NCBI GenBank assembly: GCA_028822955.1
Contig: JAPKCL010000002.1
Span: 1-34,082 of the forward strand
From: Candidatus Poseidoniaceae archaeon
GTDB taxonomy: Archaea > Thermoplasmatota > Poseidoniia > Poseidoniales > Poseidoniaceae
Direction: 5' to 3'
Length of the DNA: 34,082 nucleotides
The position numbers and the translations under genes were made by a program. Below, in pieces: positions 3,174-25,867 of this stretch; the first letter of the stretch is position 1; every line of letters begins with the position of its first letter. Under the pieces are notes generated by a model. That model searched no databases, was not told the origin of the DNA, and saw only the letters and a list, made by a program, of their open reading frames with translations.

Positions 3174-3872
3174 ATGGGACCGGTGATGAAAGCAACCCGT
3201 TTGTGGAAAATCTATCCATCCGGTGAATCTACAATTCAGGCGGTCAAAGGTGTCAATGTGACGATTGAAGCGGGTGAGATGGTCGCTATCATGGGTCCAT
3301 CAGGTTGCGGTAAAACCACTTTGCTCAACATACTCTCTGGAATTGATGAGCCGAATTCAGGGGATGTCACCGTCAAGAACCGCCCTCTCTTTGGCATCTC
3401 AGACGATGATAGGACACGAATGCGGGCTGAACACCTCGGTTTCATTTTTCAAGATTTTAATCTTCTACCTGTGCTTTCAGCTGTCGAAAATGTGGAGTTG
3501 CCGCTTTTGTTGCTTGGAAAGTCTGCTTCTGAAGCCCACAATGGAGCGCTTGCGGCGCTCAAATCAGTTGGCTTAGAAGACCGAGCAGATCATCGTCCAG
3601 CCGAGTTATCGGGTGGTCAACAACAGCGCGTTGCAGTCGCACGAGCATTAGTTCACAATCCAGCGATTATTCTTTGTGATGAACCGACAGGTAATCTTGA
3701 TTCAGCAACTTCTGCTGAAGTTCTCGAACTTCTCCTTCGATTGAATCATGAGCGTAACACGACTTTTCTTATCGTCACCCATGATTCAAAAATTGCTGAA
3801 CAATGTACGCGTACCCTACAGATGTCTGACGGCGTTTTCATCGAAGACCAAAGGAATACTGAGGAGGAGTGA
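3174..3872 (+). CDS. ABC transporter ATP-binding protein, MacB/LolD/FtsE-like subfamily
   Basis: It carries Walker A GPSGCGKTT, a Q-loop, the signature LSGGQQQRV, Walker B ILCDEPT and an H-loop VTHD. The FIFQDFNLLP motif is typical of the LolD/MacB clade. The stop codon TGA overlaps the GTG start of the permease. Confidence 0.95.
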   Translation: MGPVMKATRLWKIYPSGESTIQAVKGVNVTIEAGEMVAIMGPSGCGKTTLLNILSGIDEPNSGDVTVKNRPLFGISDDDRTRMRAEHLGFIFQDFNLLPVLSAVENVELPLLLLGKSASEAHNGALAALKSVGLEDRADHRPAELSGGQQQRVAVARALVHNPAIILCDEPTGNLDSATSAEVLELLLRLNHERNTTFLIVTHDSKIAEQCTRTLQMSDGVFIEDQRNTEEE

Positions 3873-6800
3873 AGCTGCTGATTCCTTTGGCCATCCTTTC
3901 CATTGTGGTTGCCCTTTTGAGCGCAGCATCCACCCGAGGAATAGGTCGCTGGAAACAACTTGGTGTTAGCAAAGTCTCCCTACTTATTATCGGTCCTGTC
4001 GCCGATGCTTTCCTCGGATATCTTTTGCTTGATTGGCTCTCTGTCTCAGGACTCACCTTGTGGGCTGGTGCCTTTGCTTTGGGAATGATTAGTCATGTCT
4101 TAATGCAACCTCTTCTTATTCCACAACGGCTTGTTGTTTGGCGGCTGGCAAAACAAAATATTCTCCGCCGTCAACGCCAAGCAGCACTCCTGATGGTTGG
4201 TTTGGTCATTGCCTCTGCCATCATCACTTCTTCCATGGTTGTTGGTGATTCACTGGACGCCACCGTTCGCTACGAGGTGGAAGGGGCATGGGGCGAGACG
4301 GACATTACCATATCAGGATTTGACCTTTCGATAGGTGAGCGAGTAACTCTTTCTGAATCGGTTGCGAATGCGATGTGGGATGGAATTCAAATAGACTCTT
4401 CATTCAATCGTGTCATTAAAGGTCAACAACAAGGTTTAGTTGCTTCAACCAGCGTTGCCTCGGGTGATGCATCACTTACCGGCGTTACATGGATGGCGAT
4501 GAACAGTACGATTGATAATCAAAAAGTCTGGCCCAAGATCGGCTCGCAATCTGAAGGAATACGGTATGCCGATTTGTATGATGCCAACTTCTTTTCTTCA
4601 CAAAAATACGTTGCCGTCAATGAAGTCTTGGCTGGTGAATTGGGTGTTTCCGTTGAAGACGAACTGAAGATTGGTTGGTATATTACTCAAGAAGGTAAAC
4701 GTATTCGAGTCGAATCGAACTTGACAATCCTCAGTATTGTTGCGAATGAGGGGCAGGGGGCATCTGCAGGTACGCAAGCTCCGGCCTTGTTCACAGATTT
4801 AGCCACGGCTCAATCACTTCAACGTCTCAATGGGAGTATCAATTCGTTATACTATGCAGTGGATGACGCTCACGACGATGCTGAACACATCGAACCTATC
4901 TTGGAGGATGTTGAACGACTCCTCGACCGACTAATACGCGCAACAGATGTCGGGTTAGACATTGATTTAGATGAAAATACGAAATCGATAACATTGACTT
5001 CGAGTCAAGGTTTAGGACGCCTTTCAGGAGATTTAGTGCGCGGTTTAAGGGGGAACTTGAGTCAGATCTCACCGGGCTCAAGTATGATGGAAATCTTACA
5101 AGTTCCGATGATTGAACTTGAAGAGAACAACCAACAGATTCTCACTCTTGCTGATTCGGATATATCGGAACTTCGTGCAGGCCAACGTGGCCTTTGGCAT
5201 TTCTCACCAAGTGGTGCAGGTTTCCAAATTGATGGTGCAGGTGATGCTTGGGTTTGGCGGGTTGCTGAAGGCGGCATTGCTCACGACTTCACGCTCGATT
5301 CTTCTAGAGAATATGGTTTGATTGCAACTGATGAAGGCCTTATTATCGGCTACGAAGGGGATGTTGAATCTGATGAATGGGCTTCCTTTGAAAGCGAGGG
5401 GGAAATGGTCTCTGTAACCTACGGGTCTCAACAATGGTGGGCACTTGAGGAAACTTCATCATCGTTCAAATTACATTCTTTCTCTCTTGACTTACAACAG
5501 CACTCTGTTACAAACCTCACACTTGACATGCCATCCACTGTGCTTTCTACACAGTTATACTTTGACCAGTACCTCTATTTGGAAATTGAAAGTCTTCTTT
5601 CCTCTTCTCGCTACCGATCTTCGACTTCGAATATTTCTTTTACTGCGTTGGAAGATACTTCACAATGGCCTTTGATGCCTTTATTTTCTGCAGAGGTACC
5701 TCTTCATTCATCTTGTGATGGCCAAGCATCTATCACTGAATCACAAAATGGGCATCATTGGTGCACAGTTCCGAACGGTCTTATTCGATGGGATTCTGTA
5801 AATGGACCGGTTGAAACACTTCGGATACCAATTGTATCAACTGCGGGTGGGCTCGGTGTTTTGCCGCAATTATTCTTAGCGTTTGGAGGCGAACAGTCGC
5901 CACTCGTTGTCGAAGAAGGTCAAGTGCTTTTCAGTCAACGCCTGAACGAACTCGATTTGACTGAACAAGAGAGCGAAGTATGGGTGAAAGGACTGATTCC
6001 CTATGCTTTTGGTGATAATGCCGCATACCGTTTGAACTACTCTGGTACCTATGGTGACCTTGAGGGAATGGAAAGTCTTTCAGAACTTGATGCTGTGATT
6101 CTCGGCCTTGTATCATTATCGGATGGAGAACAGTTGGCTTCTGCCGGTGAAGACGAGAGGTCAATGGTAATTCTTTCAGTTTCAGGCCAGTGGAATGATT
6201 CGGTCGCCTCTCCACTGATTTCCTGGCTCGACCTCGAATCAAATGCATCAGATGCAAATTTGAATGTTAGGGCAGTGAAGGTTGAGGCTGCGGCAATTGC
6301 TGAGGAATCCTCCGGTATTCTTGCAGCTATGTTCTTGGTTTTTGGAACATTTACGATTGCAGCGGGTATACTTCTTGTGCTCACGATTGTCATGATGTTG
6401 GCCGAAGCACGACGTTCAGAACTTGGTACAATGCGAGCCTTGGGAGTCACTCAGTCTGATGCTCGCGCTCTTGCAGTTCAGGAAGGAATTATTCTCTCAG
6501 CCATTGCAAGTCTCCTCGGAGCAATTGTTGGCTTAGTTCTCGCCTGGTTCATCAGTATTGGATTCGATAATATGTTTTCATCCGTAGGTTCGAATCAATT
6601 TACTTTTGCTTGGGAATGGACCTCTTTGTTTTCTGGAGCAGTTTGGGGCTTCCTTCTTGCTGTATTGACGCTCTGGGGTTCTGCTTTTTGGACTTCGAAA
6701 CTCAATATAATTCACGCACTGAAGGGTGGCCGCATCGCTCGTTCCGAAGGGATTCCTTGGTATCTTCTTCTCCTCCAGATTGTTGCACTTGGAGGTGGAT

Positions 6801-8482
6801 TACTTTCTCTATTGGTTTTGCTTGTTCTTGGCTTTGAATCGGGTGTTGCCTATTTCTTATGGATGGTCTCTGGTGTTTGTGCAATCATCACTCTTGTTCC
6901 GTTCTTTACTTGGGAGTTGCCGGTTTTCTTACGAACGAAGAATGATTTTTGGCAACGCCTTTGGCGGAATGCAAGCCGTAATACTTTGGCCATGATTGGA
7001 ACAATGTTGTTGATTTGGACGGTCGGTCTTTCTTCTCTTGACCCGATTCGAAAAGGAATGGAGCCAGATGAGCTTTCATTCATAGTACTCGGCTTAGTTG
7101 AAGTGTTTGCAGGTGTTCTTTTGTTAACCAGTGCTGCACCACTTCTTGTGAAGCGGTTAGGTAAATCGAAAATATTGACCCGACGTTGGGGCCCAGTGTT
7201 GCCAGTATCACTTGCTTATCCTCTTGCTACACCTGTTCGCACTGCTGTGGTAATGGGTATGTTTTCAATTACCGTATTTTCTGTGATTGTGTTGGGTGGT
7301 TATGCAGTCCAATTTGATAATTATACGAGTTCTTTTGTCGAGGACGCTGAAGGTGATTATGAATTATTATTGACAGGCTCACGTTCCAGTCCAATCGAGT
7401 TATCGGAAAACATATCCGAATGGAATCTTTCTTCAAGCCTTGAAAGCCAAATTGATTCAGTTGCACGCGTACATCGTGGCGAAGTATTCCTTGAGGATAG
7501 CGATGGTGAACGCATGCCCTATGTGATACGAGGTTTCGATGACGCTTTTGCCCAACACGGTGGTTTGCCTCTTTACACATGGGATTCCTCGCTGGGCGCT
7601 GATGAATTTGAAGTATGGAATGTCGTGTCATCACGTGACGATCTTGTGCTTCTCGATGCCTCATTTGGCCTTGAGTCAATTACCGATGGTAGCGGAATTT
7701 CAACATTGAGTTTTTCAATTGGAGAATCAATTTCGCTAATTGATATTTCTAACCCTGGTAATACGCGTTCTGTCAAGGTTGCAGGCTTTCTCGAACAATC
7801 TTCATATCTGTTTTCAGCAGGGGTTTGGATGAGTGATGATCTTGTTATCGAACAATTTGACGGGCGGCTTACTCGAATGTACGTGAGTGTCTCTGATGAT
7901 GCCCAACCTTCACCCACATACCAAGACAATACAGTGAGTGATTTCTCTCCAACCGGTAAGAGTAAGGATGTTCGAATGGCATCTGCAGAATTAGAATCTG
8001 AACTCTCACCATTACTGAACGGCAAAGGTGTGCAAGTCTCAATTATTTCAGATGAAGTCATGTTGCTTCAATCGTTAGTACTTGCATTGCTCGGGATTTT
8101 TGAGGGTTATCTTGCGTTAGGACTTATTGTGGGTATTGCTGGAATTGGGGTTGTAACAGTTCGTTCAGTTTCGGAACGAACCAAATCCATTGGTGTTCTA
8201 CGGGCACTAGGATACCGAAAGAAGATGGTACTCCTTTCATTTTGGATTGAGGTCTCCTGGGTAAGTGTCTTGGGTATGTTGAATGGGATTTTAGTCGCGG
8301 TAGGTTTTCATCGGGCTCTGTATATCGCCTTTTGGAAGGATCAGGGTGCGAGTTTTAGTCTTCCAATGGAATCCATATTTCTGGTGTTTTTCGGTGGGTG
8401 GCTGCTCGTGTTAATGGTCACCTTCGTCCCTATTCAAAAGGCTGCTAGGATTCCGGCTTCTGCCGCGTTGCGAGAATCATGA
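3869..8482 (+). CDS. Giant ABC permease with two FtsX (MacB-type) modules and large extracytoplasmic domains
   Basis: The GTG start sits in a GTGA overlap with the ATPase stop and is preceded by GAGGAGGAG (3861-3869). There are two copies of the MacB-like arrangement. Each has a basic segment plus TM (AKQNILRRQRQAALLMVGLVIA.. and WRNASRNTLAMIGTMLL..), an extracytoplasmic domain, and an FtsX core (AEARRSELGTMRALGVTQSDARAL.. and VSERTKSIGVLRALGYRKKMVLL..). The first extracytoplasmic domain spans about aa 125-812. Confidence 0.9.
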   Translation: MKLLIPLAILSIVVALLSAASTRGIGRWKQLGVSKVSLLIIGPVADAFLGYLLLDWLSVSGLTLWAGAFALGMISHVLMQPLLIPQRLVVWRLAKQNILRRQRQAALLMVGLVIASAIITSSMVVGDSLDATVRYEVEGAWGETDITISGFDLSIGERVTLSESVANAMWDGIQIDSSFNRVIKGQQQGLVASTSVASGDASLTGVTWMAMNSTIDNQKVWPKIGSQSEGIRYADLYDANFFSSQKYVAVNEVLAGELGVSVEDELKIGWYITQEGKRIRVESNLTILSIVANEGQGASAGTQAPALFTDLATAQSLQRLNGSINSLYYAVDDAHDDAEHIEPILEDVERLLDRLIRATDVGLDIDLDENTKSITLTSSQGLGRLSGDLVRGLRGNLSQISPGSSMMEILQVPMIELEENNQQILTLADSDISELRAGQRGLWHFSPSGAGFQIDGAGDAWVWRVAEGGIAHDFTLDSSREYGLIATDEGLIIGYEGDVESDEWASFESEGEMVSVTYGSQQWWALEETSSSFKLHSFSLDLQQHSVTNLTLDMPSTVLSTQLYFDQYLYLEIESLLSSSRYRSSTSNISFTALEDTSQWPLMPLFSAEVPLHSSCDGQASITESQNGHHWCTVPNGLIRWDSVNGPVETLRIPIVSTAGGLGVLPQLFLAFGGEQSPLVVEEGQVLFSQRLNELDLTEQESEVWVKGLIPYAFGDNAAYRLNYSGTYGDLEGMESLSELDAVILGLVSLSDGEQLASAGEDERSMVILSVSGQWNDSVASPLISWLDLESNASDANLNVRAVKVEAAAIAEESSGILAAMFLVFGTFTIAAGILLVLTIVMMLAEARRSELGTMRALGVTQSDARALAVQEGIILSAIASLLGAIVGLVLAWFISIGFDNMFSSVGSNQFTFAWEWTSLFSGAVWGFLLAVLTLWGSAFWTSKLNIIHALKGGRIARSEGIPWYLLLLQIVALGGGLLSLLVLLVLGFESGVAYFLWMVSGVCAIITLVPFFTWELPVFLRTKNDFWQRLWRNASRNTLAMIGTMLLIWTVGLSSLDPIRKGMEPDELSFIVLGLVEVFAGVLLLTSAAPLLVKRLGKSKILTRRWGPVLPVSLAYPLATPVRTAVVMGMFSITVFSVIVLGGYAVQFDNYTSSFVEDAEGDYELLLTGSRSSPIELSENISEWNLSSSLESQIDSVARVHRGEVFLEDSDGERMPYVIRGFDDAFAQHGGLPLYTWDSSLGADEFEVWNVVSSRDDLVLLDASFGLESITDGSGISTLSFSIGESISLIDISNPGNTRSVKVAGFLEQSSYLFSAGVWMSDDLVIEQFDGRLTRMYVSVSDDAQPSPTYQDNTVSDFSPTGKSKDVRMASAELESELSPLLNGKGVQVSIISDEVMLLQSLVLALLGIFEGYLALGLIVGIAGIGVVTVRSVSERTKSIGVLRALGYRKKMVLLSFWIEVSWVSVLGMLNGILVAVGFHRALYIAFWKDQGASFSLPMESIFLVFFGGWLLVLMVTFVPIQKAARIPASAALRES

Positions 8483-8491
8483 GTGATGTAA

Positions 8492-8525: not shown

Positions 8526-8672
8526 CCGGATATTGTGTTGTAATATACTGGTTTTGAAGCATATCTACAAACTTCCCGTACCACCAACTCTGTAATCACA
8601 GCACTGAGAAGGTTATTTACAGAATCTGTGCGTTATTTTACGCTCTAATAATCATTATTTGCACTCCTATAG

Positions 8673-8720
8673 TATAAATACGACGAATTTCGTGGAGGAA
8701 ATTACCGAACCATCGGAGGT
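8673..8720 (+). promoter_or_regulatory. TATA box (TATAAATA, 8673-8680) plus Shine-Dalgarno-like GGAGGT (8715-8720) for the 1012-aa protein gene
   Basis: The TATA element is 47 nt upstream of ATG 8727, and GGAGGT lies 6 nt upstream of the ATG. Confidence 0.45.
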
Positions 8721-8726
8721 ATAGAT

Positions 8727-11765: not shown

Positions 11766-11792
11766 TCTCAATACCTGACCCTAAGCAATCAT

Positions 11793-12128: not shown

Positions 12129-12141
12129 CCAATCCCTATAA
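12129..12141 (+). promoter_or_regulatory. Possible TATA-like element (CTATAA) overlapped by the second copy of a CCAATCCCT direct repeat, upstream of the giant ORF
   Basis: CCAATCCCTATAA at 12129-12141 lies about 40 nt upstream of ATG 12179. An identical 9-mer occurs at 12100-12108. Confidence 0.3.
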
Positions 12142-21100: not shown

Positions 21101-24100
21101 AACGTCTTCAACGATGGTGGCGAAATTGCAGATATCTGGCTCTATACCAATGGATTCTCCGATAATGCAGTAATTTCTGACAACGTGATCAACAATGGTG
21201 ACGCTGCAGCAGCTGCAATCGCTGTTTACAATGGTGCGCACACAGGTACTACCATTTCTGGTAACACCATTAACGCTGCAACAGATGGAATCATGATGCT
21301 CTCTGGTGTGGATTACCACATCACTGACAACACCATCAACGGCGCTGGCGACTCTGCTTATGCTGGAATTACAACATCACTTGGATATGGTGACATCGAT
21401 AATAATACACTCGTCGACACAGATGGTGGATTGATTATCGCTGGTGCACAATCAATACCTGCTCCTACAACCTCACTTTGTTCGATTGCAGGTAACTCGT
21501 ATGGATCACTTTCGACCTGTACTGCTGTACTCGCAGCTGGTAAGACAATGTCTGTTAACATTGAAACTGATTCTTGGGGCTATGAAGCAAGTATCGACAT
21601 CGTCAAGCCTGATGGAACAACTGACAGTTGGTCTACCTATACTTTTGGTAGTAACACAGCCTACACGCCTCTGGTTAGCTATACCGCTGCTGGAAACTAT
21701 TCACTGACTCTCCGAGACAGTTATGGTGACGGTGGAACCACTGTCTACATGGTAGAAGGTGGCGCTGCAGGTGGATACTCTGGACCAACGATTGCAGACA
21801 ACAGCATTACGTCCTCCGTTGGACGAACTGCTCCTGGTGCCGTCGGTCTCGTGTTAGAAGACTGTTCAAGTGTTACAATCAACTCTGCTCGAAACGCAAT
21901 AACATTGTCTGACAATGCTATGGTGATTAGTGACTGTGATGTTATTGATTTGGCCTCTGTTCTTACCGGACAAGGCGACTCAATGACTGTTGGTATTGAT
22001 GCAGATGACGTGAATTCCGATTCACTGACTCTCTCCGGAACTATCATTGATGGATTCGCTACTGGTGTTGAAAAGACCAGTGGAGATCTAGTTTTGACCG
22101 GTGATGCAGTACTTTCAGGTGATGATTACGGTGTCTATGTTGATGATGCCTCAGTTATTGCTATCAATGCTGCAGTCAATGGTGGAAACCTAGGAACTGG
22201 TCTTCACGTCGTTGACAGTGATGATGTTTGGGTTTACCCAATGAACGCTTCAGGTTTCGTTGGTATGTACGTCGAAAACTCACCATTCCGTTGGGATGGT
22301 GGCACATCGACTGCTACTACAACTCTCCAAGTTGTTGAATCTCAAGGGTCAGTCGAAAACATGACTTGGTCCACTTCAACAACTCAGATTGATGCTGGCA
22401 GTAACGCATACGTGACTTCGATTGGTAACACAATCGACGCTGCTAAGTTGGTCGTTGCAACCTCTGCAACCATCGATGAAGCAAACTTGTTCACCATGGA
22501 CTCGACTCACTTGACTGCAGCGATTAACCCTGCTACCGATAACGAAGTCTCAATGTTGATTCAATCGACAGACGGAACTCGTGCTTCATATGTCTCAACT
22601 GGTTTCCAACCGGAAGTCATGGCTGTTGATGGTGATGACTCTGACTGGAACGGTGGTAACGCCCTCAACCCATCCGGCTATGCAATGCCTGGTGTTATGA
22701 GTGGAGACGGAACCAACGACATGATGGTAACATACATCGAAGGTGACGACCTCTACATCGGTTTGACCGGTGAAGATCTCTCAACAAGTGATGCACTCAT
22801 CTACCTCAGCGTCGATGGCAGTGGAAGCAGCACCGGATACAACCTCGGTGGCGCACACACATTGCCATTCCAAGCAAACTACGTGCTTTGGGCTGACAGC
22901 GATGCATCAACTGGATATGCCTTGTACAGTTACGGTTTCCTCGGATGGAGTCCAACATCACTCAGCTCTGCTAGTGTTGATGTGTCTTCCTCGAGCACCT
23001 TGACTGAAATTTCCATCCCATTCTCACGAATTGGTGGAACTCCAAGTCAGATTGACATTGTTGCAATCGTTCAGGGAGAGACAACTGCTGATGTCAGCAC
23101 TGTCCACCCAACGCAAGCAATGAATGCATCGAACACTCTACAATCGTTCACTGAATACATGACTGTCGAGCTTACGCACGACGATCTTGCTGATGGTTCA
23201 ATTGATGACGAAGTTCTTGTCTACCGCTCTTACAAGGGCTCAAACACTCCAAGTGTTGCAAAGAACTACGATGTTATGGTCAAGACATCAGCAGACTGTG
23301 CCTATGATTGGGCCGTCGCTACTGACTTGTCACTTGCTACCAACATTGCAATCAGCCTTGACATGGCTCGTGCTTGCCCTGAAATCCAGGCAACACTCGC
23401 TGACATCACTGTTACAGAAGACTCGTCTGCTTACACTTTCAGTCTCACGAACCTTGTTGACGATGTACAAGACCTTGAAGCAGATCTCTCATGGACTTCT
23501 GCAGATGGTAACCTCGTTGCATTCGACAATGTTCTTGTTGACTGGAACCAAAACGGCCACACAGTGACCATCACTCCTTTGACGGACCAATTCGGTACCC
23601 TCGAATATGAGTTTGAAGTCACTGACAGCCACGGTTTGACCGACTCGAAGAACATCTCTTTCGAAGTAACGAACGTGAACGATGCACCTACTATCTGTAA
23701 CGTCGAAGAGAATGATTGTATGCCAATCTTCTCCGTCGACGATATCTTCAACAACATCTTGGCTGAAGGGTTCGGAACACATACCAAGTCTCTTGGTAAT
23801 GTTTCAAACGCTTCCAAGTCCTATGTTCGAGACATGGCAAACGAGCAATCACCTGACCGTCAAGTCTACGATTGGAGCGCATCTGTTGATTCAACATGTG
23901 TCGCATTTGCTGTGGAAGTTGATGCAATGAACTCTCTTGTAATTACCGAGAACAGCTCAAATGAAAAGGGCGGTACCTGTACTGTCACTATGCAATTGAC
24001 TGACAACGGTAACGAGAACACTGCTGCAATACCATTCGATGTCGACTTCTCAGTCGCACCGGTGAATGATGCTCCAGTGATTACTTTGCAAGACGTCGAT

Positions 24101-25867
24101 AGTCAGAACTTGTTCGCCAATGGTGCTGGAGACCGTGCTACTGGTGAAGGAGAATACATTACCATGACTGAAGATGATACCACAGCTGATAACCTCACTT
24201 GGGATCTTCTACCTTTGATGAATGATATTGACCATGATGTACCAGCAGACCTTACTTGGACTGTTGAACCAACCAGTCAGTGTACGTACACCAACTACTT
24301 TACAACAGCAATCATTGGCACAGACCTCGTGTTCTCATTGATTCCAGACGCAACCACAAACGGTTACGATTGGGAAGTTGATTACATGAACGACAACGGT
24401 GTTCACCAATTGCGACCAAGTGGCCAGACTTTCTGTGCCATCAACTTGGTTCTCAAGGATACTGCAACTGCACCATCTCATACACCTAACTATGATACAA
24501 CGCTTATGCCAATCGCTGATTACCAGCAAGGCCAAGATGATGTAGTAATGTACGTCACTGTTGAACGTGTCTCAGAAAATGTCGCTGACTACTCTCTCGA
24601 CACTGTTTCTGGCATTGACTTCAATGAGATCACCAACGTCATGACTGGCACCTTTGTTCCTGTAACAGCGAACATTGACGCTGGTGGCGATGAAGGTCCT
24701 TACAACTACGACCACATGCTTGCAGTGACTTTCCACACGGACGGACACGGTGAAGAAGAGTTTACTCGCTACTACAACGTTCCAGCATACGGAACCAGTA
24801 TCGATGTGAATGAAAATGTGTACATCACTAAGGATACAACCAAGATCGAAGTGTCGATGGATGTTCTGACCTGTTTGAACGACCCATGTGACCTCACAGC
24901 ACCTGCTAGTGAGCGTTTCCAAGTCGATGACCCACAGTCTCACCGCTCTAACAACGGTGGTTCTCAAGGATCTGACTGGTCGAACCCAGGTCAATATGGA
25001 CAGAATGCATCTCAGACCTCTGAACGCCGACCTATGCTTGAAGACAAGTTCTGGTGTAACAACCGTCTTACAACACTCGATCTTGATACTGCTGAAGCAA
25101 ACTCCAACTGGGGCAAGTGTAACGAATACGCTGCAGGCTCAGGCTCATTCGGTGCAACCGGACAAGCTCTACCTAACGTAGTTCGTACCATCGGTGCAAG
25201 TTCAGTGCCTTCGTTTGCTCCAAGTATTGTAGTGGTCAGTCTAACTGGTCTCTTTGTGAGCGCTCTAGCCTTCTCCAGCCGTCGTGCAGACGATGAAGAA
25301 GAAGTTACAGTGAGTCTCGAAGACAATGATATGGCAGTGAGCCCAGTTATTGCAACTATCTTGATGGTTGCAATCACCGTGGTTCTTTCTGGTGTAATCT
25401 ATGTTTGGGCAAGTAGCCTGGCAGATACTGATGTCAAGGGTGTTCCTCGGGTCACTTTTGATATTGAAGATATTGACAGCTTCGATGTTAACAACGGACA
25501 CTGGCGAATCAACGTCCAGTCCGCTGAGACTGACTTAGCAACACAAGCAGTTGAAGTCCGTGTATTCTACGTGGACGGCAACGGTGATGCTCAGACGAAG
25601 ACCTGGAATATGGCAGACACCAACGGCGTGTATGGCTTCAACCCAGCAAACAGTGACTCAATGGTTACATTTGTTGACCAAGTCAACTCCGATGGCGACA
25701 ATAAGGTTTCAACCTTCAATACCGGTGATACCATCTTCGTGCGAACACACGACACAGATGGAACACCTCTTGAAGATGTGACAATTACTCTATCCTACGC
25801 TCCTAATGTAGGTCAAGGTGCGCTTCTGCGCTCTTGGAGTGGTTTGTCATACGACCTTAGTGCTTGA
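12179..25867 (+). CDS. Giant (about 4560 aa) secreted or anchored surface protein: multiple right-handed beta-helix (PbH1/CASH-like) blocks, cadherin-like modules, Tyr-rich segments, a C-terminal TM anchor and a fused pilin-like module
   Basis: This is a single open frame of 13.7 kb. The start is taken at ATG 12179 (MKVNDMLGITNKKKKTVFNGIGVALLLCALMALMPMAG, a signal/anchor); the ORF track uses TTG 12164. PbH1-type repeats include SGNTFNDCGVGV, ISNNVFNDGGEI, ISDNVINNGD, ISGNTINAATDG, ITDNTINGAGD and IDNNTLVDTDGG (about 20990-21450). Other beta-helix-like blocks lie at about 16180-17400, 18050-18625 and 19500-20010. Cadherin-like module ends VNDAP occur at 23675-23689 and 24062-24076. The TM anchor is at 25223-25276. 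Confidence 0.9.
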   Translation: MKVNDMLGITNKKKKTVFNGIGVALLLCALMALMPMAGFVDNNAGDVEFVNTNETTENDFFALPDTKETVEYENEPSEELIGMRDQTTKTFVQEDGDFVQLTHDSPVHFMGDDGAWTDIDLNIKATASGWEVMDNSFTTQFGSEMAYGVAVQVNQFVDPIIVGINPTLMTIDETGTAPQPFEAAPSNDEVTVGGNMIRYPVAEGFAIDYAVENTQLKQNLIISERPVLQPNAAWFGFSEIMQIPSGYALFLGEDMLGEEITQTQDALDIRNIETGELLAQIPSPVVIEDGAEEPYLATYFIQVSGSQVLISTVVETDWLLSDDRVFPLAIDPTIKVYSAGGGYCYKNYNRCYVGNNRYLYTYYSQQRYQPYSRYTFSSSSNLPTGATVESIKVHQRWSYKSGASTTNGVKMSVLEACGAGSSSYGYTIPTGTCSGALATSAYSFSSTQYNSANARKLIVSIFNSNIVDSFTPGSGWKVGEVCTTATSCSSSTSAGYITSAQTASSSVGIGLTFPTSAYLYSYSGHSGSTNSYIAVTYSGGSDTDAPASGFTAYTDVTSYIEGSRTFFTTLTDLSGIDTTSANMPTLNYALDNGSYTSVAATSIGTCAASSSSCQFKATIPTISAGEYVEYYWKFQDLNSGSNGVNVGYDPVLTGTQSTPTPYFFAVEDIEDAGDDKMLRVLTTDVSAGGYAQMSNTNIDRQFTHFDGSDEFYFEFDVSDCGTGSAACWYTAGGNYAYQYDNWAVQHTTIAPAGSYGMSTSSTQRSNIDLLHTRDDGYLTVDAKNGPGMNLLYHFNSGENAFAMVGVGSSPSIDSKLSAGTSADTSNGYGYTDSFIIKLESDSAATANGAETYGGNMGLFAFGNATGGAGTNANRLCVTSNGFTYIMRSPASYRDACRSYYLYGGSSSGAPSYAWSGWALGMGYYGSMAGSGDVTYKIGGVKPLPDTFAPVVDHSGLADSHSTSRTVAAIISDAGDPASGLNVSTTAGVGPTMVYRVTPDGGTTGSWISEVMSPGTGTTRTECVLAACTWSSDIEDLDRGDSVEYYMTSQDVSPVAAGINTVTTTTESFSVGDPNKMFIVEWRDMQYTNNAQRCSYQAVFYDVTNEIEFKYDDACKNSYDAATVGFMDQTRTKGQTIRHSTSTAYLNGANAHTNNYRISTDSGDGSWEAFDRGMTGLVNAESSDIMGSTGGTPSGYYCASGYYWNTWSTKCADNIAMPDGFNFTYFGTDYNHTDSNDRVHLGRHGNMNFISNGATSVVRSMTTWYGNMPQLPYSSSSYARAGLIAPYWSYYGTYYCYQNSGSDCGVYYRTMPFEGKGTDVTSDITQDTTWDLQDSPVRINPTSDYLSISAKLTIEAGTVIQIGANKGISFDGACDQMTINGNSSAHVLFEALDAEWLGMAFTDSCSTGTDDRHVFSYVDFKNTSDAAIAAGSRHGGSPSSNGNVGNFTMDHVTFTDVGSAFAHGSGQGTVVSMTEFSVDGADDSCFDFAENSVVSLTEGDLKNCNTDGGSGNGAIVNVAGSTTGSLFLENTTIQNSYVNLIAVDFGMVTVSNVTATATSAQTGAALDSAAGAGAEVVLFNFDADDYASVSIDAMNTVMMTTVDFGSASMNLFPAGVSTSSATGASGDNAIFDDVTAGNMMMRNLQPGTFKDMSVGDLTITGDPATSAVVDMENLDAGDVTISGCGWNVIASSMTAERLSSNGCSAAANTLVVSDSTLTHTSTTDSVIYARYSDITLGESAVTSTTAGLNNIYLAQADTNSDIRLVAVSQGGSDCADAAGSTGNCDVNVASTSSEVWFGGLATVRTYRMALVSGVATQIFKSGHTVTAAVIDSSSSELFEVGSHITDTATATLGSTSVWVITGDESGNTYVDHNLRAFGPAGQNETMSTDSWYPSTGGFTIGSSIDLLLEPAPVDFDQAGMDCAWMDAYVDPSNGAGLPTNGTTANGNTIFEFDGTPMTLSADLTLDGCQMILKGSALKVKSTATSSPVLTLTNGGILTVTVSPDTGAIGAVRAISSSYGLHLDIVSGSLILDGGILRDVAQDSTTGAALMIGEGATLVMMDGATIYGSSTSSDTMSTVKVDGGTITIADSSIINNGQTGTALWVEAAGGTIENVIVKNAAVGIQAFNGAPQVDGFTSTDNVVGVDVYGGMSLPTIYRSTLLSGQSTGWTTYKIDLSTYLANDYLQVGWNSIYGGGNAHPTYNYATSKYYMITDRYNIELEDTNGNAWNITSADQLGYYPYNAEDPASGDGAHATYTEGAAGGVPSWDCNTYGYNYGPNYPSSNTGYFYSIWQALTGTNPGYPGYYQAPDQFGFDWENIDGVSPSGSYAYYPYHYWGYYYTSYHGGAAGTTFAPPEGYAGSYNVCLDYAYSYYMSAGQGARLTMPMIDISASNLSKASLYIDVLHNRADNFQDRLEFVARASNSVSTLIDGTYVRESGTPLFKDGTITGADTGVSVGGGFAAAHFQDITVTNPTDSGMDITGQTASTLDGFDVTGGNYGVLIGNSASGSMDLENISLDGQATAGVYYAKDITGTLSGSVVNSAGAAFKYGPNTDNDVDFSSISIASNAVGIETSGTGDISMTDVTMANTKDVVIKSSANVEFVEGTVDSTTVEVTGAGMFTRMRQLDVTLTADAAGIPGASVTLLDANGASSGNGVTDSVGIAQDLKYVTATVDSTGLTTPSLAGYQVMSVAKVEYYYNSSSDNVADFRYAKQSVSITDTSGNAVTVPMTTKITERVCWYSTSTAYTTVAPCAASFSSAGTRSLSDGDGGTVTEYGYSGGLTASQSNKVIMLDVPYLYLKSNVDYNFNGSTLLSTGAYDFYNTQRWYSSYPYGSGVTMNDAAVYGVASDPSDGSMYGIEIGYYGSPIVNFEANNTVFSNIAKIEMSHGYKYYTNYIWEIEEVSITNSTISHFQGYEQLNNAILVSDICMMLRGGDGAIVSGNTFNDCGVGVMLDRSPYYRYHTAADYGADNATISNNVFNDGGEIADIWLYTNGFSDNAVISDNVINNGDAAAAAIAVYNGAHTGTTISGNTINAATDGIMMLSGVDYHITDNTINGAGDSAYAGITTSLGYGDIDNNTLVDTDGGLIIAGAQSIPAPTTSLCSIAGNSYGSLSTCTAVLAAGKTMSVNIETDSWGYEASIDIVKPDGTTDSWSTYTFGSNTAYTPLVSYTAAGNYSLTLRDSYGDGGTTVYMVEGGAAGGYSGPTIADNSITSSVGRTAPGAVGLVLEDCSSVTINSARNAITLSDNAMVISDCDVIDLASVLTGQGDSMTVGIDADDVNSDSLTLSGTIIDGFATGVEKTSGDLVLTGDAVLSGDDYGVYVDDASVIAINAAVNGGNLGTGLHVVDSDDVWVYPMNASGFVGMYVENSPFRWDGGTSTATTTLQVVESQGSVENMTWSTSTTQIDAGSNAYVTSIGNTIDAAKLVVATSATIDEANLFTMDSTHLTAAINPATDNEVSMLIQSTDGTRASYVSTGFQPEVMAVDGDDSDWNGGNALNPSGYAMPGVMSGDGTNDMMVTYIEGDDLYIGLTGEDLSTSDALIYLSVDGSGSSTGYNLGGAHTLPFQANYVLWADSDASTGYALYSYGFLGWSPTSLSSASVDVSSSSTLTEISIPFSRIGGTPSQIDIVAIVQGETTADVSTVHPTQAMNASNTLQSFTEYMTVELTHDDLADGSIDDEVLVYRSYKGSNTPSVAKNYDVMVKTSADCAYDWAVATDLSLATNIAISLDMARACPEIQATLADITVTEDSSAYTFSLTNLVDDVQDLEADLSWTSADGNLVAFDNVLVDWNQNGHTVTITPLTDQFGTLEYEFEVTDSHGLTDSKNISFEVTNVNDAPTICNVEENDCMPIFSVDDIFNNILAEGFGTHTKSLGNVSNASKSYVRDMANEQSPDRQVYDWSASVDSTCVAFAVEVDAMNSLVITENSSNEKGGTCTVTMQLTDNGNENTAAIPFDVDFSVAPVNDAPVITLQDVDSQNLFANGAGDRATGEGEYITMTEDDTTADNLTWDLLPLMNDIDHDVPADLTWTVEPTSQCTYTNYFTTAIIGTDLVFSLIPDATTNGYDWEVDYMNDNGVHQLRPSGQTFCAINLVLKDTATAPSHTPNYDTTLMPIADYQQGQDDVVMYVTVERVSENVADYSLDTVSGIDFNEITNVMTGTFVPVTANIDAGGDEGPYNYDHMLAVTFHTDGHGEEEFTRYYNVPAYGTSIDVNENVYITKDTTKIEVSMDVLTCLNDPCDLTAPASERFQVDDPQSHRSNNGGSQGSDWSNPGQYGQNASQTSERRPMLEDKFWCNNRLTTLDLDTAEANSNWGKCNEYAAGSGSFGATGQALPNVVRTIGASSVPSFAPSIVVVSLTGLFVSALAFSSRRADDEEEVTVSLEDNDMAVSPVIATILMVAITVVLSGVIYVWASSLADTDVKGVPRVTFDIEDIDSFDVNNGHWRINVQSAETDLATQAVEVRVFYVDGNGDAQTKTWNMADTNGVYGFNPANSDSMVTFVDQVNSDGDNKVSTFNTGDTIFVRTHDTDGTPLEDVTITLSYAPNVGQGALLRSWSGLSYDLSA
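25205..25303 (+). other. C-terminal-anchor-like tripartite element inside the giant ORF: VPSFAP + about 18 hydrophobic residues + SRRADDEEE
   Basis: VPSFAP (25205-25222), SIVVVSLTGLFVSALAFS (25223-25276) and SRRADDEEE (25277-25303). The architecture parallels the true C-terminus of the 8727..11765 protein. Confidence 0.6.
25331..25867 (+). other. In-frame archaeal type IV pilin-like module (class III signal-peptide-like helix + small beta-rich domain; DUF1628/Pilin_N-like), 178 codons from ATG 25331
   Basis: MA-VSPVIATILMVAITVVLSGVIYVWASS matches the archaeal prepilin/archaellin N-terminal consensus (..SPVI..IL(M/L)VAITV.L...). It is followed by PRVTFDIED...WRINVQ...VEVRVFYVDG, typical of small archaeal pilin-like proteins. 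No stop codon separates it from the upstream giant ORF. Confidence 0.65.

What the first reader, a model, noticed from the sequence alone, without database searches (positions are those of the whole stretch)
3174..25867. Co-directional MacB-type ABC motor plus two anchored surface proteins: candidate undescribed archaeal cell-surface system
Four consecutive + strand genes occupy 22.7 kb. They are an ABC ATPase, a 1537-aa double-FtsX permease (coupled to the ATPase by a GTGA overlap), a 1012-aa anchored protein and the giant protein with its pilin-like tail. MacB/LolCDE/FtsEX-type ABC systems are established mechanotransducers. They use cytoplasmic ATP hydrolysis to act on extracytoplasmic substrates through their periplasmic domains rather than transporting across the bilayer. 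No membrane-fusion or outer-membrane partner is present here, consistent with a single-membrane archaeon, yet the permease carries unusually large extracytoplasmic domains. One hypothesis is that the ABC engine extracts, positions, releases or remodels the neighbouring anchored giants or the pilin-like module. The genes are separated by 244-nt and 413-nt spacers that each contain terminator-like and TATA-like elements. Co-transcription is therefore not implied, and the linkage is an inference from adjacency only.
Basis: inference. Interest (0 to 1): 0.7.

Follow-up and report, generated by a model that had tools for sequence, protein, structure and literature searches.

The report
ABC motor beside archaeal surface giants
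In Marine Group II archaea, an ATP-driven MacB/Lol-type membrane machine with an oversized outer domain always sits beside two anchored surface proteins, one a 4,557-residue giant with a pilin-like tail; the neighbourhood is conserved across the order, but whether the machine serves those proteins is unproven.

Summary
An ABC ATPase (3174-3872), a 1537-aa double-FtsX permease (3869-8482, GTGA overlap), a 1012-aa anchored protein "p3" (8727-11765) and a giant protein with a pilin-like tail (ORF 12164-25867, likely start 12194) are real. The organism is a Poseidoniaceae (MGIIa) archaeon.

The order ABC-permease-p3-giant held in every evaluable locus among 161 Poseidoniales loci (MGIIa and MGIIb), and in one more distant lineage. 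But a Nob1-like PIN gene, TatA, ThiS and a DedA/VTT gene are conserved in place just as strictly, so synteny alone is not specific.

p3 and the giant co-diverge strongly (partial r 0.79). The permease ectodomains do not follow them. p3 and the giant each have their own invariant promoter and leader, and a strong hairpin terminator follows p3.

Permease ectodomain 1 is a LolC/E/MacB-like Porter-Sabre fold with an inserted beta-propeller. The giant's tail is a conserved hairpin anchor plus an archaellin/FlaF-like module with a non-canonical junction (D[DE]xA|VSPVIATIL). p3 ends in an invariant ...[WF]DY.

Verdict: this is an undescribed, order-wide envelope gene block. I put a functional ABC-to-surface-protein link at about 0.4.

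The parts
1298..2026 (-). DedA/VTT-domain membrane protein. It marks the left edge of the conserved block.
   Evidence: PF09335 at 2.8e-15. Present at this position in 101/101 evaluable loci. Replaced at the same position by a DUF368/VCA0040-like gene in L162.
1954..2493 (+). PIN_6 ribonuclease with a C-terminal CxxC...CxxC zinc ribbon (Nob1-like housekeeping gene).
   Evidence: PF17146 at 1.1e-8; sequence. Present in 122/122 evaluable loci. It shows that the block's synteny includes a gene with no expected envelope role.
2495..2797 (-). TatA/E-like small membrane protein (100 aa).
   Evidence: ORF. The homologue in L083 and L162 is called PF02416 TatA_B_E. Present in 122/122 loci.
2871..3170 (-). 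ThiS/MoaD-like ubiquitin-fold protein ending in ...PPVSGG. Its likely start is the internal Met near 3122.
   Evidence: PF02597 at 6.4e-11. Present in 118/122 loci.
3174..3872 (+). ABC ATPase of the MacB/LolD/FtsE/YbbA type, with intact Walker A, signature, Walker B and H-loop motifs.
   Evidence: PF00005 at 1.3e-36. LolD TIGR02211 scores 251 bits, below its 307.75 cut-off; YbbA, MacB and FtsE follow. Motifs read from the sequence. Present in 138/138 loci.
3869..8482 (+). Fused double-FtsX permease, 1537 aa and about 15 predicted TM segments. Layout: 3 N-terminal TMs; module 1 (TM, ectodomain 1, 3 TMs); 4 linker TMs; module 2 (TM, ectodomain 2, 3 TMs).
   Evidence: Two FtsX hits plus MacB_PCD. 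Hydropathy. GTGA overlap with the ATPase stop. More than 200 homologues of about 1500-1560 aa. The most conserved stretches are TM1 and TM2 of both modules.
4244..6334 (+). Permease ectodomain 1 (residues 126-822, about 700 aa): a Porter/Sabre-like fold carrying a large insertion.
   Evidence: AlphaFold2 model of residues 100-960, mean pLDDT 77.9. Foldseek hits to LolE, LolC and MacB periplasmic domains at E 3e-8 to 1e-6.
5081..5830 (+). Beta-propeller insertion within ectodomain 1 (about residues 405-654).
   Evidence: About 28 consecutive beta-strands, mostly pLDDT 80-93. Foldseek hits to WD40 propellers (WDR5, Cdc20, DDB1, LRP6) at E about 2e-5 to 7e-5.
7301..8068 (+). Permease ectodomain 2 (residues 1145-1400), of ordinary MacB-type size.
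   Evidence: Hydropathy. Highly conserved in alignment A1. No Pfam hit when scanned alone.
8664..8729 (+). Invariant p3 promoter and leader: CTCCTATAGTATAAATACGAC (8664-8684), about 18 variable nt, then TACCGAACCATCGGAGGTATAGAT-ATG.
   Evidence: Alignment of 12 lineages, with permease identity down to 58%, in an otherwise unconserved spacer.
8727..11765 (+). p3: a 1012-aa acidic, Ser/Thr-rich surface protein with a signal peptide, conserved Cys pairs and a membrane-proximal FN3-like region.
   Evidence: No Pfam or NCBIfam family. A profile of 26 homologues weakly matches FN3 domains (contactin, E 8e-4). Present in 118/118 loci.
11634..11765 (+). p3 anchor: VP.W.W motif, TM ending GAFIL[ST]RG, a short Gly/acidic tail and an invariant C-terminal [WF]DY.
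   Evidence: Identical pattern in all ~95 p3 homologues listed, including the most distant one, L162.
11783..11880 (+). Terminator-like element after p3: two GC-rich hairpins followed by a U-rich tract.
   Evidence: MFE -41.5 kcal/mol; z = -4.15; 0 of 200 shuffles fold as well.
12100..12193 (+). Invariant upstream element of the giant gene (AAATCAAACATTTCGCACCCCAA..CCTATAAGGGGA.CAAGGCGTGGGATGCTTTGCATACAATCCGTATG.AGGTGAATGAC), containing a TATA-like box and an SD-like AGGTGA.
   Evidence: Alignment of 11 lineages. A 1-nt indel inside it shows that it is non-coding.
12194..25867 (+). Giant surface protein (4557 aa from ATG 12194; the frame is open from 12164). It is non-repetitive, acidic and Ser/Thr-rich, with beta-helix and cadherin/Big_9-like regions.
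   Evidence: Beta_helix 2.3e-9, Big_9 1e-4, Cadherin_5 1.3e-4. The homologue in L083 is one 4558-aa ORF with Pilin_N. Present in 79/79 loci.
25217..25333 (+). First anchor of the giant: SVPSFAPS, a TM (residues 4352-4370 in ORF numbering) and SRR, then a cytoplasmic acidic loop of about 20 aa.
   Evidence: Conserved in 14 to 76 homologues. The loop averages 9.8 acidic and 2.2 basic residues.
25334..25867 (+). Pilin/archaellin/FlaF-like module: invariant A|VSPVIATILMVAITVVLSGV.YVWA helix followed by a beta-sandwich of about 150 aa.
   Evidence: Pilin_N 7.2e-9. TIGR02537 9.6e-9 and UpsA 6.5e-6. Conserved fusion. Model pLDDT 70.9. Foldseek hits: archaellins at 9.5e-4, Cuniculiplasma filament at 1.2e-3, FlaF at 9e-3.
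26002..26781 (+). HAD-family hydrolase, co-directional. It marks the right edge of the conserved block.
   Evidence: PF12710 and PF00702. It follows the giant in L081, L082, L165 and L166. Synteny differs after it in L166.

Best explanation
**What it is.** The four genes are the core of a gene block conserved across the whole order Poseidoniales. They form at least three transcription units.

1. *A type VII (MacB/LolCDE/FtsEX/YbbAP-like) ABC mechanotransducer.* Two copies of the LolD-like ATPase would bind one fused permease. The permease's two unequal FtsX modules form the central four-helix bundle. Module 1 carries a Porter/Sabre ectodomain with an inserted beta-propeller.
2. *p3*, made from its own very conserved promoter.
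3. *The giant*, also made from its own conserved promoter.

p3 and the giant are a co-evolving pair of acidic proteins exported by Sec and anchored at the C-terminus. They most likely form or decorate the cell coat. The giant is held by a hairpin: TM, acidic cytoplasmic loop, then a pilin-type helix. The hairpin puts an archaellin/FlaF-like beta-sandwich back on the outside.

**How it most likely works (inference).** ATP binding and hydrolysis in the cytoplasm drive a scissor-like movement of the stalk helices and ectodomains at the outer face of the single membrane. No substrate crosses the bilayer.

The target would be the invariant, membrane-proximal parts of p3 and the giant, not their fast-evolving ectodomains. 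Those parts are the VP.W.W / VPSFAPS motifs, the conserved TM helices and the pilin-type helix. The machine would position them, insert or extract them, or quality-control them. This parallels LolCDE, which grips the lipid anchor rather than the protein of its substrates.

**Shown:** gene identities, folds, architecture, order-wide conservation, p3-giant covariation, separate promoters.

**Inferred:** any physical or functional coupling of the ABC machine to p3 or the giant.
For: **Identity and fold**
- Pfam and NCBIfam assignments.
- Model of residues 100-960 at pLDDT 77.9, with LolE, LolC and MacB hits at E 3e-8 to 1e-6 and WD40 propeller hits at about 2e-5.
- The most conserved permease stretches are TM1 and TM2 of both modules and the TM1-stalk motif ITSSLVVGDSLD.

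**Conservation**
- ABC in 138/138, p3 in 118/118 and giant in 79/79 evaluable loci, from 80 GTDB species representatives and 78 metagenome loci with permease identity of 32-40%.
- Those distant clusters are named Thalassarchaeaceae.
- The deeper lineage L162 (permease 28-30% identical, 1218 aa) keeps a p3-like gene ending ...DWDY and a giant homologue.

**Block boundaries**
- Genes left of DedA/VTT vary between lineages.
- After HAD, L166 has a solute-binding-protein gene instead of PolD.

**Independent recurrence**
- In L172/L173 (GC 31%) a related 1230-aa permease is followed, with short gaps and on the same strand, by three non-homologous proteins made of PQQ-type propellers and Big_5 domains. 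Each has a C-terminal TM anchor.

**Surface pair**
- Partial r between p3 and the giant is 0.79, Mantel p = 0.001.
- Both drop together in lineage A: p3 from 57% to 37%, the giant from 68% to 39%.

**Conserved anchors despite fast ectodomains**
- p3 tail.
- Giant hairpin.

**Precedent**
- The type VII transporter YbbAP works with a partner encoded next to it (PMC12646458).
Against: - The housekeeping or unrelated neighbours are conserved in position exactly as strictly: PIN/Nob1-like 122/122, TatA 122/122, ThiS 118/122 and VTT 101/101. Within MGIIa the whole window down to the flotillin gene is collinear. Adjacency may simply be inherited.
- Permease-to-surface-protein residual covariation is weak (0.18-0.37). 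It is no higher for the ectodomains than for the TM part.
- Lineages A and B differ about 20-30 identity points in p3 and the giant, but only 0-5 points in the permease ectodomains.
- p3 and the giant have their own invariant promoters, and a strong terminator follows p3. Co-transcription with the ABC pair is therefore unlikely.
- Related permeases in three other archaeal-type contexts (L167, L170/171, L174) and two bacterial ones (L164, L168/169) have no adjacent surface proteins.
- No expression, interaction or genetic data exist. The organisms are uncultured.
Confidence: 0.4

Rival explanations
1. **Independent neighbours.** The ABC pair is a self-contained type VII machine. It would extract or expel hydrophobic or amphipathic compounds from the outer leaflet, such as lipids, xenobiotics or antimicrobial peptides, as YbbAP, HrtBA, MacB or BceAB do. 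The propeller would bind a ligand or a partner that is not p3 or the giant. On this reading the adjacency to the surface genes is inherited gene order in a slowly rearranging region.
For: - Unrelated genes (Nob1-like PIN, TatA, ThiS) are just as syntenic.
- The whole window is collinear in MGIIa.
- There are separate promoters and a terminator.
- The permease ectodomains do not track p3/giant divergence.
- Most related permeases outside Poseidoniales stand alone with their ATPase.
Against: - The block survives to 28% permease identity while both flanks are rearranged.
- There is an independent association with non-homologous anchored surface proteins in L172.
- The 700-aa propeller-bearing ectodomain is confined to the lineages that have p3 and the giant.
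Confidence: 0.38
2. **Lipid-carrier or glycosylation module.** The ABC pair would work with the neighbouring DedA/VTT (or DUF368) protein on polyprenyl-phosphate-linked intermediates at the outer leaflet. It could release or protect dolichol-(pyro)phosphate carriers, as BceAB does for undecaprenyl pyrophosphate. It would then serve the glycosylation of the two Ser/Thr- and Asn-rich surface proteins indirectly.
For: - DedA/VTT is present at the left edge in 101/101 loci.
- In L162 that position holds a DUF368/VCA0040-like 'undecaprenyl phosphate translocase-like' gene instead.
- DedA and DUF368 are the two families shown to be C55-P translocases (PMC9876793).
- BceAB-type type VII transporters act on the lipid II cycle (PMC5985334).
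- p3 has 8 and the giant 32 N-x-S/T sequons.
Against: - The displacement is seen in one lineage only.
- Not all DedA proteins are carrier flippases (PMC10127716).
- The DedA gene is on the opposite strand, with the PIN, TatA and ThiS genes in between.
- No glycosyltransferase or oligosaccharyltransferase gene is in the window.
Confidence: 0.12
3. **Pilin-handling machine.** The giant would be a precursor whose C-terminal pilin module is cut at the cytoplasmic A|VSP junction by the class III signal peptidase. The ABC machine, rather than a PilB/PilC-type motor, would then extract or assemble the released pilin or the anchored giant.
For: - A at -1 is invariant, and the mature-type helix VSPVIATILMVAITVVLSGV is identical to that of the stand-alone pilin paralogue P0205, which has a canonical MRQAKRINYEKA|VSP leader.
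- The topology places the junction on the cytoplasmic side, where the peptidase acts.
- The tail has an archaellin-like fold.
Against: - K/R at -2 is present in only 3 of 76 tails. Positions -3 and -4 are invariably acidic, unlike known class III signals.
- FlaF/FlaG-type proteins keep such a helix uncleaved, and FlaF is among the fold hits.
- No type IV pilus ATPase, platform or peptidase gene is in the window.
- No type VII ABC transporter is known to assemble pilins (own knowledge).
Confidence: 0.06

Closest known systems
[quoted passage not shown]
   Same: A separate ATPase gene sits directly upstream of one polypeptide that carries two FtsX modules and two ectodomains. A candidate partner is encoded next to it. 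YbbP appears among the fold hits, and the YbbA model is the third-best ATPase match.
   Different: - YbbP is 804 aa with two linking TM helices (PMC5985334). The permease here is 1537 aa with 3 extra N-terminal TMs and 4 linker TMs.
- Ectodomain 1 here is about 700 aa and carries a beta-propeller.
- The organism is a single-membrane archaeon, and no TesA-like hydrolase is present.
LolCDE lipoprotein extractor
   Same: The best structural matches of ectodomain 1 are LolE and LolC (E 3e-8), and the best ATPase model is LolD. It is a heterodimer-like pair of unequal FtsX modules with one ATPase gene. It acts on a membrane anchor rather than on the protein body, which is the mechanism proposed here.
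   Different: - Scores fall far below the NCBIfam equivalog cut-offs: LolD 251 against 307.75, lolCE 23 against 362.
- There is no LolA/LolB and no outer membrane.
- The candidate substrates here are TM-anchored, not lipidated.
FtsEX with EnvC, PcsB or CwlO
   Same: A type VII ABC system that transports nothing. It transmits ATP-driven movement to an extracytoplasmic partner protein that binds its ectodomain (PMC7668044).
   Different: - FtsX is a small homodimeric 4-TM protein.
- The FtsE model scores below its cut-off (198.7 against 264.85).
- Archaea of this group have no peptidoglycan.
- The permease ectodomains here do not covary with the candidate partners.
Archaeal type IV pilins, archaellins and FlaF/FlaG (Pilin_N / DUF1628 class)
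   Same: The tail matches Pilin_N, TIGR02537 and UpsA. Its helix is identical to that of the stand-alone pilin paralogue P0205, which has a canonical leader. Its modelled fold matches archaellins, a Thermoplasmatota filament subunit and FlaF.
   Different: - The module lies at residue about 4390 of a 4567-codon ORF, after another TM and an acidic loop.
- Position -2 is almost never K/R, and -3 and -4 are acidic.
- No assembly ATPase or platform gene is nearby.
C-terminal sorting signals (PGF-CTERM/archaeosortase, PEP-CTERM/exosortase)
   Same: p3 and the giant's first anchor both have a short signature motif (VP.W.W / VPSFAPS), then a TM helix, then Arg.
   Different: - No sorting-domain model matches.
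- The tail after the TM is long, acidic and ends in an invariant [WF]DY instead of a basic cluster.
- No sortase gene is in the window.

Membership tests
Type VII (MacB/FtsX-fold) ABC transporters | FtsX-type membrane domain: four TM helices with a large extracytoplasmic domain between TM1 and TM2. | tested here: met
   Two PF02687 hits (3.1e-27). Hydropathy gives TM, ectodomain and 3 TMs twice. The model shows long TM1 and TM2 stalk helices.
Type VII (MacB/FtsX-fold) ABC transporters | Porter/Sabre-type periplasmic core fold. | tested here: met
   MacB_PCD scores 29.4 bits against a cut-off of 27. Foldseek hits to LolE, LolC and MacB periplasmic domains at E 3e-8 to 3e-6, with target TM-scores of 0.57-0.65 for the isolated domains. 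Ectodomain 2 was not modelled.
Type VII (MacB/FtsX-fold) ABC transporters | Cognate MacB/LolD/FtsE-class ATPase with intact catalytic motifs, encoded with the permease. | tested here: met
   The best ATPase models are LolD, YbbA, MacB, DevA and FtsE. Walker A, LSGGQ, Walker B and H-loop are present (sequence). There is a 4-nt overlap with the permease gene.
Type VII (MacB/FtsX-fold) ABC transporters | Mechanotransmission: ATP-driven ectodomain movement without passage of a substrate across the membrane. | not testable with these tools
   This needs structures in several nucleotide states, or biochemistry.
LolCDE (lipoprotein release) | Orthology to LolC/E and LolD (NCBIfam equivalog cut-offs). 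| tested here: not met
   TIGR02211 scores 251.2 against 307.75. TIGR02212 lolCE scores 23.3 against 362.45.
MacAB-TolC tripartite pumps | Adjacent membrane-fusion (MacA/HlyD) adaptor and an outer-membrane exit duct. | tested here: not met
   No such family appears among the window's ORFs or in related loci with called genes. The MacB model NF007826 scores 223 against 966.
YbbP-type fused double permeases / ADOP family | Two FtsX modules and two ectodomains in one chain, a separate ATPase and two linking TM helices. For ADOP, also the TIGR03434 cut-off. | tested here: not met
   The fusion and the separate ATPase are present. However, four linker TMs and three extra N-terminal TMs are predicted. 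TIGR03434 scores 40.4 against 622.3. YbbP fold hits are weak (E 4e-5, TM-score about 0.2).
Archaeal type IV pilins / class III signal-peptide proteins | Pilin_N-type hydrophobic helix. | tested here: met
   PF07790 scores 32.5-36.8 bits against a cut-off of 25.2. TIGR02537 scores 34.6 against 20.
Archaeal type IV pilins / class III signal-peptide proteins | Short, positively charged N-terminal leader with K/R at -2 and G/A/S at -1, at the protein's N-terminus. | tested here: not met
   The site is internal (ORF residue about 4391). Position -1 is A in 76/76 tails, -2 is K/R in 3/76, -3 is D/E in 76/76 and -4 is D in 72/76. The stand-alone paralogue P0205 does have ...YEKA|VSPVIATIL.
Archaeal type IV pilins / class III signal-peptide proteins | N-terminal helix plus a beta-sandwich globular domain. 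| tested here: inconclusive
   Model pLDDT is 70.9. The best Foldseek hits are archaellins (9.5e-4), the Cuniculiplasma filament (1.2e-3) and FlaF (9e-3). E-values are marginal and generic Ig-like hits lie close behind.
Archaeal type IV pilins / class III signal-peptide proteins | Processing by PibD/FlaK and assembly by a PilB/PilC-type motor encoded nearby. | not testable with these tools
   No such genes are in the window. Cleavage and assembly need experiments.
Archaeosortase/exosortase C-terminal sorting domains | A match to a curated CTERM sorting-domain model and a basic cluster after the TM. | tested here: not met
   No NCBIfam or Pfam hit for p3. The tail after the TM is acidic and ends in [WF]DY.

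The most novel reading that the evidence does not exclude
Poseidoniales would use a type VII ABC mechanotransducer as a dedicated machine for membrane-anchored surface proteins. That would be an archaeal, TM-anchor counterpart of LolCDE.

The machine would recognise the invariant anchors of p3 (VP.W.W, TM, ...[WF]DY) and of the giant (hairpin with an internal pilin-type helix). It would insert, extract or hand over these anchors.

The giant's D[DE]xA|VSPVIATIL junction would be an internal, non-canonical class III processing site. Cleavage there would release a pilin-like subunit from a 4,400-residue 'leader'.
Probability: 0.08. Interest if true: 0.9.

Novelty: new variant of a known kind. Interest (0 to 1): 0.6.

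Why it matters
Marine Group II archaea are among the most abundant archaea in surface oceans. They are uncultured, and their cell envelope is essentially unknown.

This block is present in every genome examined and takes up about 1% of a roughly 2-Mb genome. It gives three concrete handles:

1. **A first candidate role for a type VII ABC transporter in Archaea.** Its architecture (15 TMs, a propeller-bearing 700-aa ectodomain) was not found among the described members I consulted.
2. **A likely cell-coat pair.** p3 and the giant co-diverge fast, as expected for virus- or grazer-exposed surfaces, yet keep invariant anchors.
3. **An unusual anchoring solution.** It combines a hairpin with a pilin-type helix and an externally displayed archaellin/FlaF-like domain.

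If the link is real, it would extend the 'extract or position membrane-anchored cargo' logic of LolCDE to single-membrane archaea and to protein TM anchors. If it is not, the block still defines marker genes and promoters for studying the MGII envelope.

Tried and rejected
1. **Is the pilin tail a separate gene hidden by a missed stop or an internal start?** Rejected.
   - The fusion is continuous in all homologues that cover the junction.
   - The Met before AVSP is not conserved (5/76).
   - L083 has a single 4558-aa ORF.
   - The short 'pilin' genes on long contigs L081 and L082 come from frameshifted long-read assemblies. PolD and Pelota are also split there.
2. **Synteny as proof of function.** Rejected as sufficient evidence, because PIN, TatA, ThiS and VTT are equally syntenic.
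3. **Are p3 and the giant paralogues or internally repetitive?** No BLAST similarity between them or within them.
4. **Tat export of p3 or the giant, suggested by the adjacent TatA.** Neither signal peptide has a twin-arginine motif.
5. **Mirror-tree test for permease-to-surface-protein coevolution.** The signal is weak and not specific to any domain.
6. **Structure prediction of p3 from an alignment built on the fetched loci.** Only a weak FN3 profile match was obtained.
7. **A shared palindrome, TGTAAYTTTTACAA, in both spacers.** It is conserved only in close relatives, and mostly on the giant's side. It was therefore not used as evidence of co-regulation.
8. **Literature.** No description of this block was found in the MGII genomics papers checked or in a 2026 survey of archaeal type IV filament systems. 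PMC4478702 is not held.
9. **Rfam.** Only two tRNAs were found in the window.
Full report
**1. The observation**

The window comes from a Poseidoniaceae (Marine Group II a) archaeon. The flanks encode the PolD small subunit, Pelota, FTHFS and flotillin. The closest permease homologues are named Poseidoniaceae or Poseidoniales.

All four + strand ORFs are present at the stated coordinates.

- The 232-aa ATPase is a MacB/LolD/FtsE/YbbA-class ABC protein with intact motifs.
- Its TGA overlaps the GTG of the 1537-aa permease and follows a GGAGGAGGAG run.
- The permease has two FtsX domains and a MacB_PCD match. It has about 15 predicted TM segments, in this order:
  - three N-terminal TMs;
  - TM, ectodomain 1 (residues 126-822), three TMs;
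  - four linker TMs;
  - TM, ectodomain 2 (residues 1145-1400), three TMs.
- p3 has a signal peptide and a C-terminal TM.
- The giant has an N-terminal hydrophobic segment, a TM at 4352-4370 and a Pilin_N match at 4391-4437.

Two details need correcting.

- Comparison with relatives shows a 1-nt indel upstream of ATG 12194 and invariance from there on. The giant most likely starts at 12194. That gives 4557 aa, against 4558 aa for the L083 homologue.
- Two small - strand genes lie between the PIN gene and the ATPase: TatA at 2495-2797 and a ThiS/MoaD-like gene at 2871-3170.

**2. Transcription units**

- T-tracts follow the permease stop.
- Upstream of p3, an otherwise unconserved spacer contains an invariant CTCCTATAGTATAAATACGAC box and an invariant leader, TACCGAACCATCGGAGGTATAGAT-ATG. 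Both hold in lineages down to 58% permease identity.
- After p3 come two GC-rich hairpins and a U-tract, z = -4.15.
- The giant is preceded by about 100 invariant bases with a TATA-like box and an SD-like AGGTGA.

There are thus at least three units: the translationally coupled ABC-permease pair, p3 and the giant. Such a strictly conserved promoter and leader is what one expects of a heavily expressed envelope gene. That last point is inference.

**3. The permease**

An AlphaFold2 model of residues 100-960, built from 15 sequences, has mean pLDDT 77.9.

- It shows a long TM1-stalk helix and a mixed alpha/beta region. The best PDB matches for that region are the periplasmic domains of LolE, LolC and MacB (E 3e-8 to 1e-6).
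- It then shows about 28 consecutive strands that match WD40-type propellers (WDR5, Cdc20, DDB1; E about 2e-5).
- A less confident segment leads back to the TM2 helix.

Ectodomain 1 is therefore a Porter/Sabre core with a propeller insertion. Ectodomain 2 is of ordinary size. The most conserved stretches of the whole protein are TM1 and TM2 of both modules and the TM1-stalk motif ITSSLVVGDSLD. In solved type VII transporters these helices line the central cavity (established knowledge; PMC5985334, PMC8333309).

The protein is a type VII ABC permease by every feature I could test. It fails the ortholog cut-offs of LolCE, MacB, FtsX and ADOP. It also differs from YbbP in size and in the number of linker helices.

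**4. The surface proteins**

Both are acidic (D+E of about 12-13%, K+R of about 3-4%), Ser/Thr-rich and carry conserved cysteines. Neither shows detectable internal repeats or similarity to the other.

- The giant has beta-helix and cadherin/Big_9-like regions.
- p3 has a weak membrane-proximal FN3-like signal.

The p3 C-terminus is invariant in all ~95 p3 homologues listed. Its pattern is [VI]P.W.W, a TM ending GAFIL[ST]RG, a short Gly/acidic tail and a terminal [WF]DY. The most distant homologue is only 22-28% identical elsewhere.

The giant's first anchor is similar in kind: SVPSFAPS, a TM, then SRR. No curated sorting-signal model matches either anchor.

**5. The tail of the giant**

A search with the last 667 residues found 85 homologues. 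Nearly all cover both the pre-anchor region and the Pilin_N module. Across sequences 42-91% identical the layout is fixed:

- SFAPS, a TM and SRR;
- an acidic loop of about 20 aa;
- AVSPVIATILMVAITVVLSGV.YVWA;
- a globular domain of about 150 aa.

In 76 tails, position -1 is always Ala, -3 is always Asp/Glu and -4 is Asp in 72. Position -2 is Lys/Arg in only 3. The stand-alone paralogue P0205 has the same helix behind a canonical leader, MRQAKRINYEKA|VSPVIATIL.

The modelled tail (pLDDT 70.9) has two helices and a beta-sandwich. Its best matches are archaellins, a Cuniculiplasma filament subunit and FlaF, at marginal E-values of 1e-3 to 1e-2.

The topology is self-consistent: giant ectodomain outside, TM1, acidic loop inside, pilin-type helix, beta-sandwich outside. 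The sequence cannot tell whether the junction is cut. The non-canonical -2 to -4 positions and the FlaF precedent favour an uncleaved hairpin anchor. The invariant Ala at -1 keeps cleavage open.

**6. The synteny test**

I fetched 80 loci from GTDB species representatives. I also fetched 78 metagenome loci, seeded with distant permeases. Source names place these distant clusters in Thalassarchaeaceae, that is MGIIb.

Every evaluable locus among the 161 scanned has each gene in place:

| Gene | Loci with the gene / evaluable loci |
|---|---|
| ATPase | 138/138 |
| p3 | 118/118 |
| giant | 79/79 |
| PIN | 122/122 |
| TatA | 122/122 |
| DedA/VTT | 101/101 |
| ThiS | 118/122 |

- The unrelated genes in the lower half of the table are as strictly syntenic as the four genes of the finding.
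- In MGIIa the right flank (HAD, PolD, CinA, Pelota, FTHFS, flotillin) is also collinear.
- The block does have edges. Genes left of DedA/VTT differ between lineages. In a lineage whose tail is 35% identical, HAD is followed by a solute-binding-protein gene instead of PolD.
- The deeper lineage L162 (GC 51%, permease 1218 aa, 28-30% identical) keeps PIN, TatA, ThiS, ABC, permease, a 1334-aa p3-like protein ending DDDEDWDY, and a giant homologue.

The refutation condition, no conserved synteny, is clearly not met. Because a Nob1-like housekeeping gene is just as fixed in place, conservation of order cannot by itself prove a functional link.

**7. Tests beyond synteny**

(a) *Covariation.* I used 40 loci with all genes complete and controlled for PIN and ATPase distances. 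The p3-giant partial correlation is 0.79. Permease TM, ectodomain 1 and ectodomain 2 against p3 give 0.32, 0.37 and 0.32. Against the giant they give 0.32, 0.18 and 0.24.

(b) *A natural experiment.* Two sublineages are equally distant from the window in PIN, ATPase and permease:

| Region (identity to the window) | Lineage A | Lineage B |
|---|---|---|
| Permease TM | 67% | 68% |
| Ectodomain 1 | 48% | 50% |
| Ectodomain 2 | 63% | 68% |
| p3 | 37% | 57% |
| Giant | 39% | 68% |

If the permease touches these proteins, it must do so through their conserved parts, the anchors, and not through their variable ectodomains.

(c) *Contexts outside the order.*

- L172/L173 (GC 31%): a related 1230-aa permease is followed on the same strand, with short gaps, by three non-homologous proteins made of PQQ-type propellers and Big_5 domains. 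Each has a C-terminal TM anchor.
- L167, L170/171 and L174: the ABC pair stands alone.
- The bacterial L164 and L168/169: the ABC pair also stands alone.

**8. Interpretation**

The descriptive part is solid.

- This is an order-wide envelope block, not described in the papers I checked.
- It contains a new architectural variant of type VII ABC transporters.
- It contains a co-evolving pair of anchored surface proteins.
- One of these proteins has a hairpin, pilin-type anchor, which I found described nowhere in that literature.

The mechanistic link is an inference, which I rate at about 0.4. The most coherent version has the machine acting at the outer leaflet on the invariant anchors, as LolCDE does on lipid anchors. 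This version fits three results:

- the conserved central helices;
- the conserved anchors;
- the lack of ectodomain covariation.

The main rival, at about 0.38, is an independent extractor or efflux machine whose position is inherited. A third reading, at about 0.12, ties the block to carrier-lipid recycling. In L162 the DedA/VTT gene is replaced at the same position by a DUF368 gene. These are the two known families of C55-P translocases (PMC9876793). A pilin-processing reading is possible but unlikely, at about 0.06.

**9. Known or new**

I found no description of this block in the following sources:

- MGII genomics papers;
- a Red Sea metatranscriptome paper that reports a highly expressed DUF1628 gene in MGII;
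- a review of the MacB family, in which the word 'archaea' does not occur;
- a 2026 survey of archaeal type IV filament systems.

The closest characterised system is E. coli YbbAP-TesA (PMC12646458).

I class the finding as a new variant of a known kind. Interest is moderate to high because of the abundance of the organisms and the unusual anatomy. It is limited by the lack of any direct evidence for coupling.

Noticed in passing
window 1298-2026 (-); L162:5015-5968 (-): The DedA/VTT gene at the left edge of the block is replaced, at the same position and orientation, by a DUF368/VCA0040-like 'undecaprenyl phosphate translocase-like' gene in the distant lineage L162. DedA and DUF368 are the two known polyprenyl-phosphate translocase families. 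This looks like a non-orthologous displacement, but it is seen in one lineage only.
   Followed up: partly
window 11634-11765 (p3 C-terminus): The cytoplasmic tail of p3 ends in an invariant [KDE][DE][WF]DY-COOH in all ~95 p3 homologues listed, including ones only 22-28% identical elsewhere. This suggests that an unknown cytoplasmic factor recognises it.
   Followed up: partly
window 2871-3170 (-) and 2495-2797 (-): A ThiS/MoaD-like ubiquitin-fold gene ending in GG and a TatA gene lie divergently just upstream of the ABC ATPase. They are as strictly conserved in position as the four genes of the finding (ThiS 118/122, TatA 122/122 loci). No reason for this is known.
   Followed up: partly
window 8487-8500 and 12027-12040: The palindrome-like 14-mer TGTAAYTTTTACAA occurs exactly twice in the 34-kb window, once in each spacer. 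The copy upstream of the giant, at about -155, is conserved in close relatives only. The copy after the permease stop is sporadic.
   Followed up: yes
L018, L022, L024, L026, L128, L133 (lineage A) versus L020, L025, L028, L036 and others: One MGIIa sublineage has p3 and the giant diverged to 37-39% identity. Its sister lineage keeps 57-68%, at equal distance in all neighbouring genes. This is a coupled acceleration or replacement of the two surface proteins, as expected under diversifying selection on exposed proteins.
   Followed up: partly
L172:1644-15128 (also L173): In a GC 31% lineage, a related 1230-aa double-FtsX permease has no ATPase gene visible upstream. On the same strand it is followed by a 171-aa membrane protein and three large proteins made of PQQ-type propellers and Big_5 domains, each with a C-terminal TM anchor.
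   Followed up: partly
L081 and L082 (ENA long-read, pilon-polished contigs): The giant gene is split into 6-9 called genes, and PolD and Pelota are also split in L082. These are frameshift artefacts. They explain why databases hold many short 'flagellin-like' or 'type IV pilin' proteins that are really the giant's C-terminus.
   Followed up: yes
P0205 (459 aa) and P0204, found: Stand-alone pilin-like proteins carry a canonical class III leader (MRQAKRINYEKA|VSPVIATIL...). Their helix is identical to that of the giant's tail, and they have Gly/Ser/Asp-rich repeats downstream. They may be the ancestor or a partner of the tail module.
   Followed up: no
window 154-939 (+): A 261-aa ORF with a Pro-rich, extensin-like C-terminal region. 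It has homologues only in the closest relatives (48-60% identity in L009, L014 and L016) and lies outside the conserved block.
   Followed up: no
window 1157-1231 (-) and 29223-29295 (+): Two tRNA genes. They are the only Rfam matches in the window.
   Followed up: no
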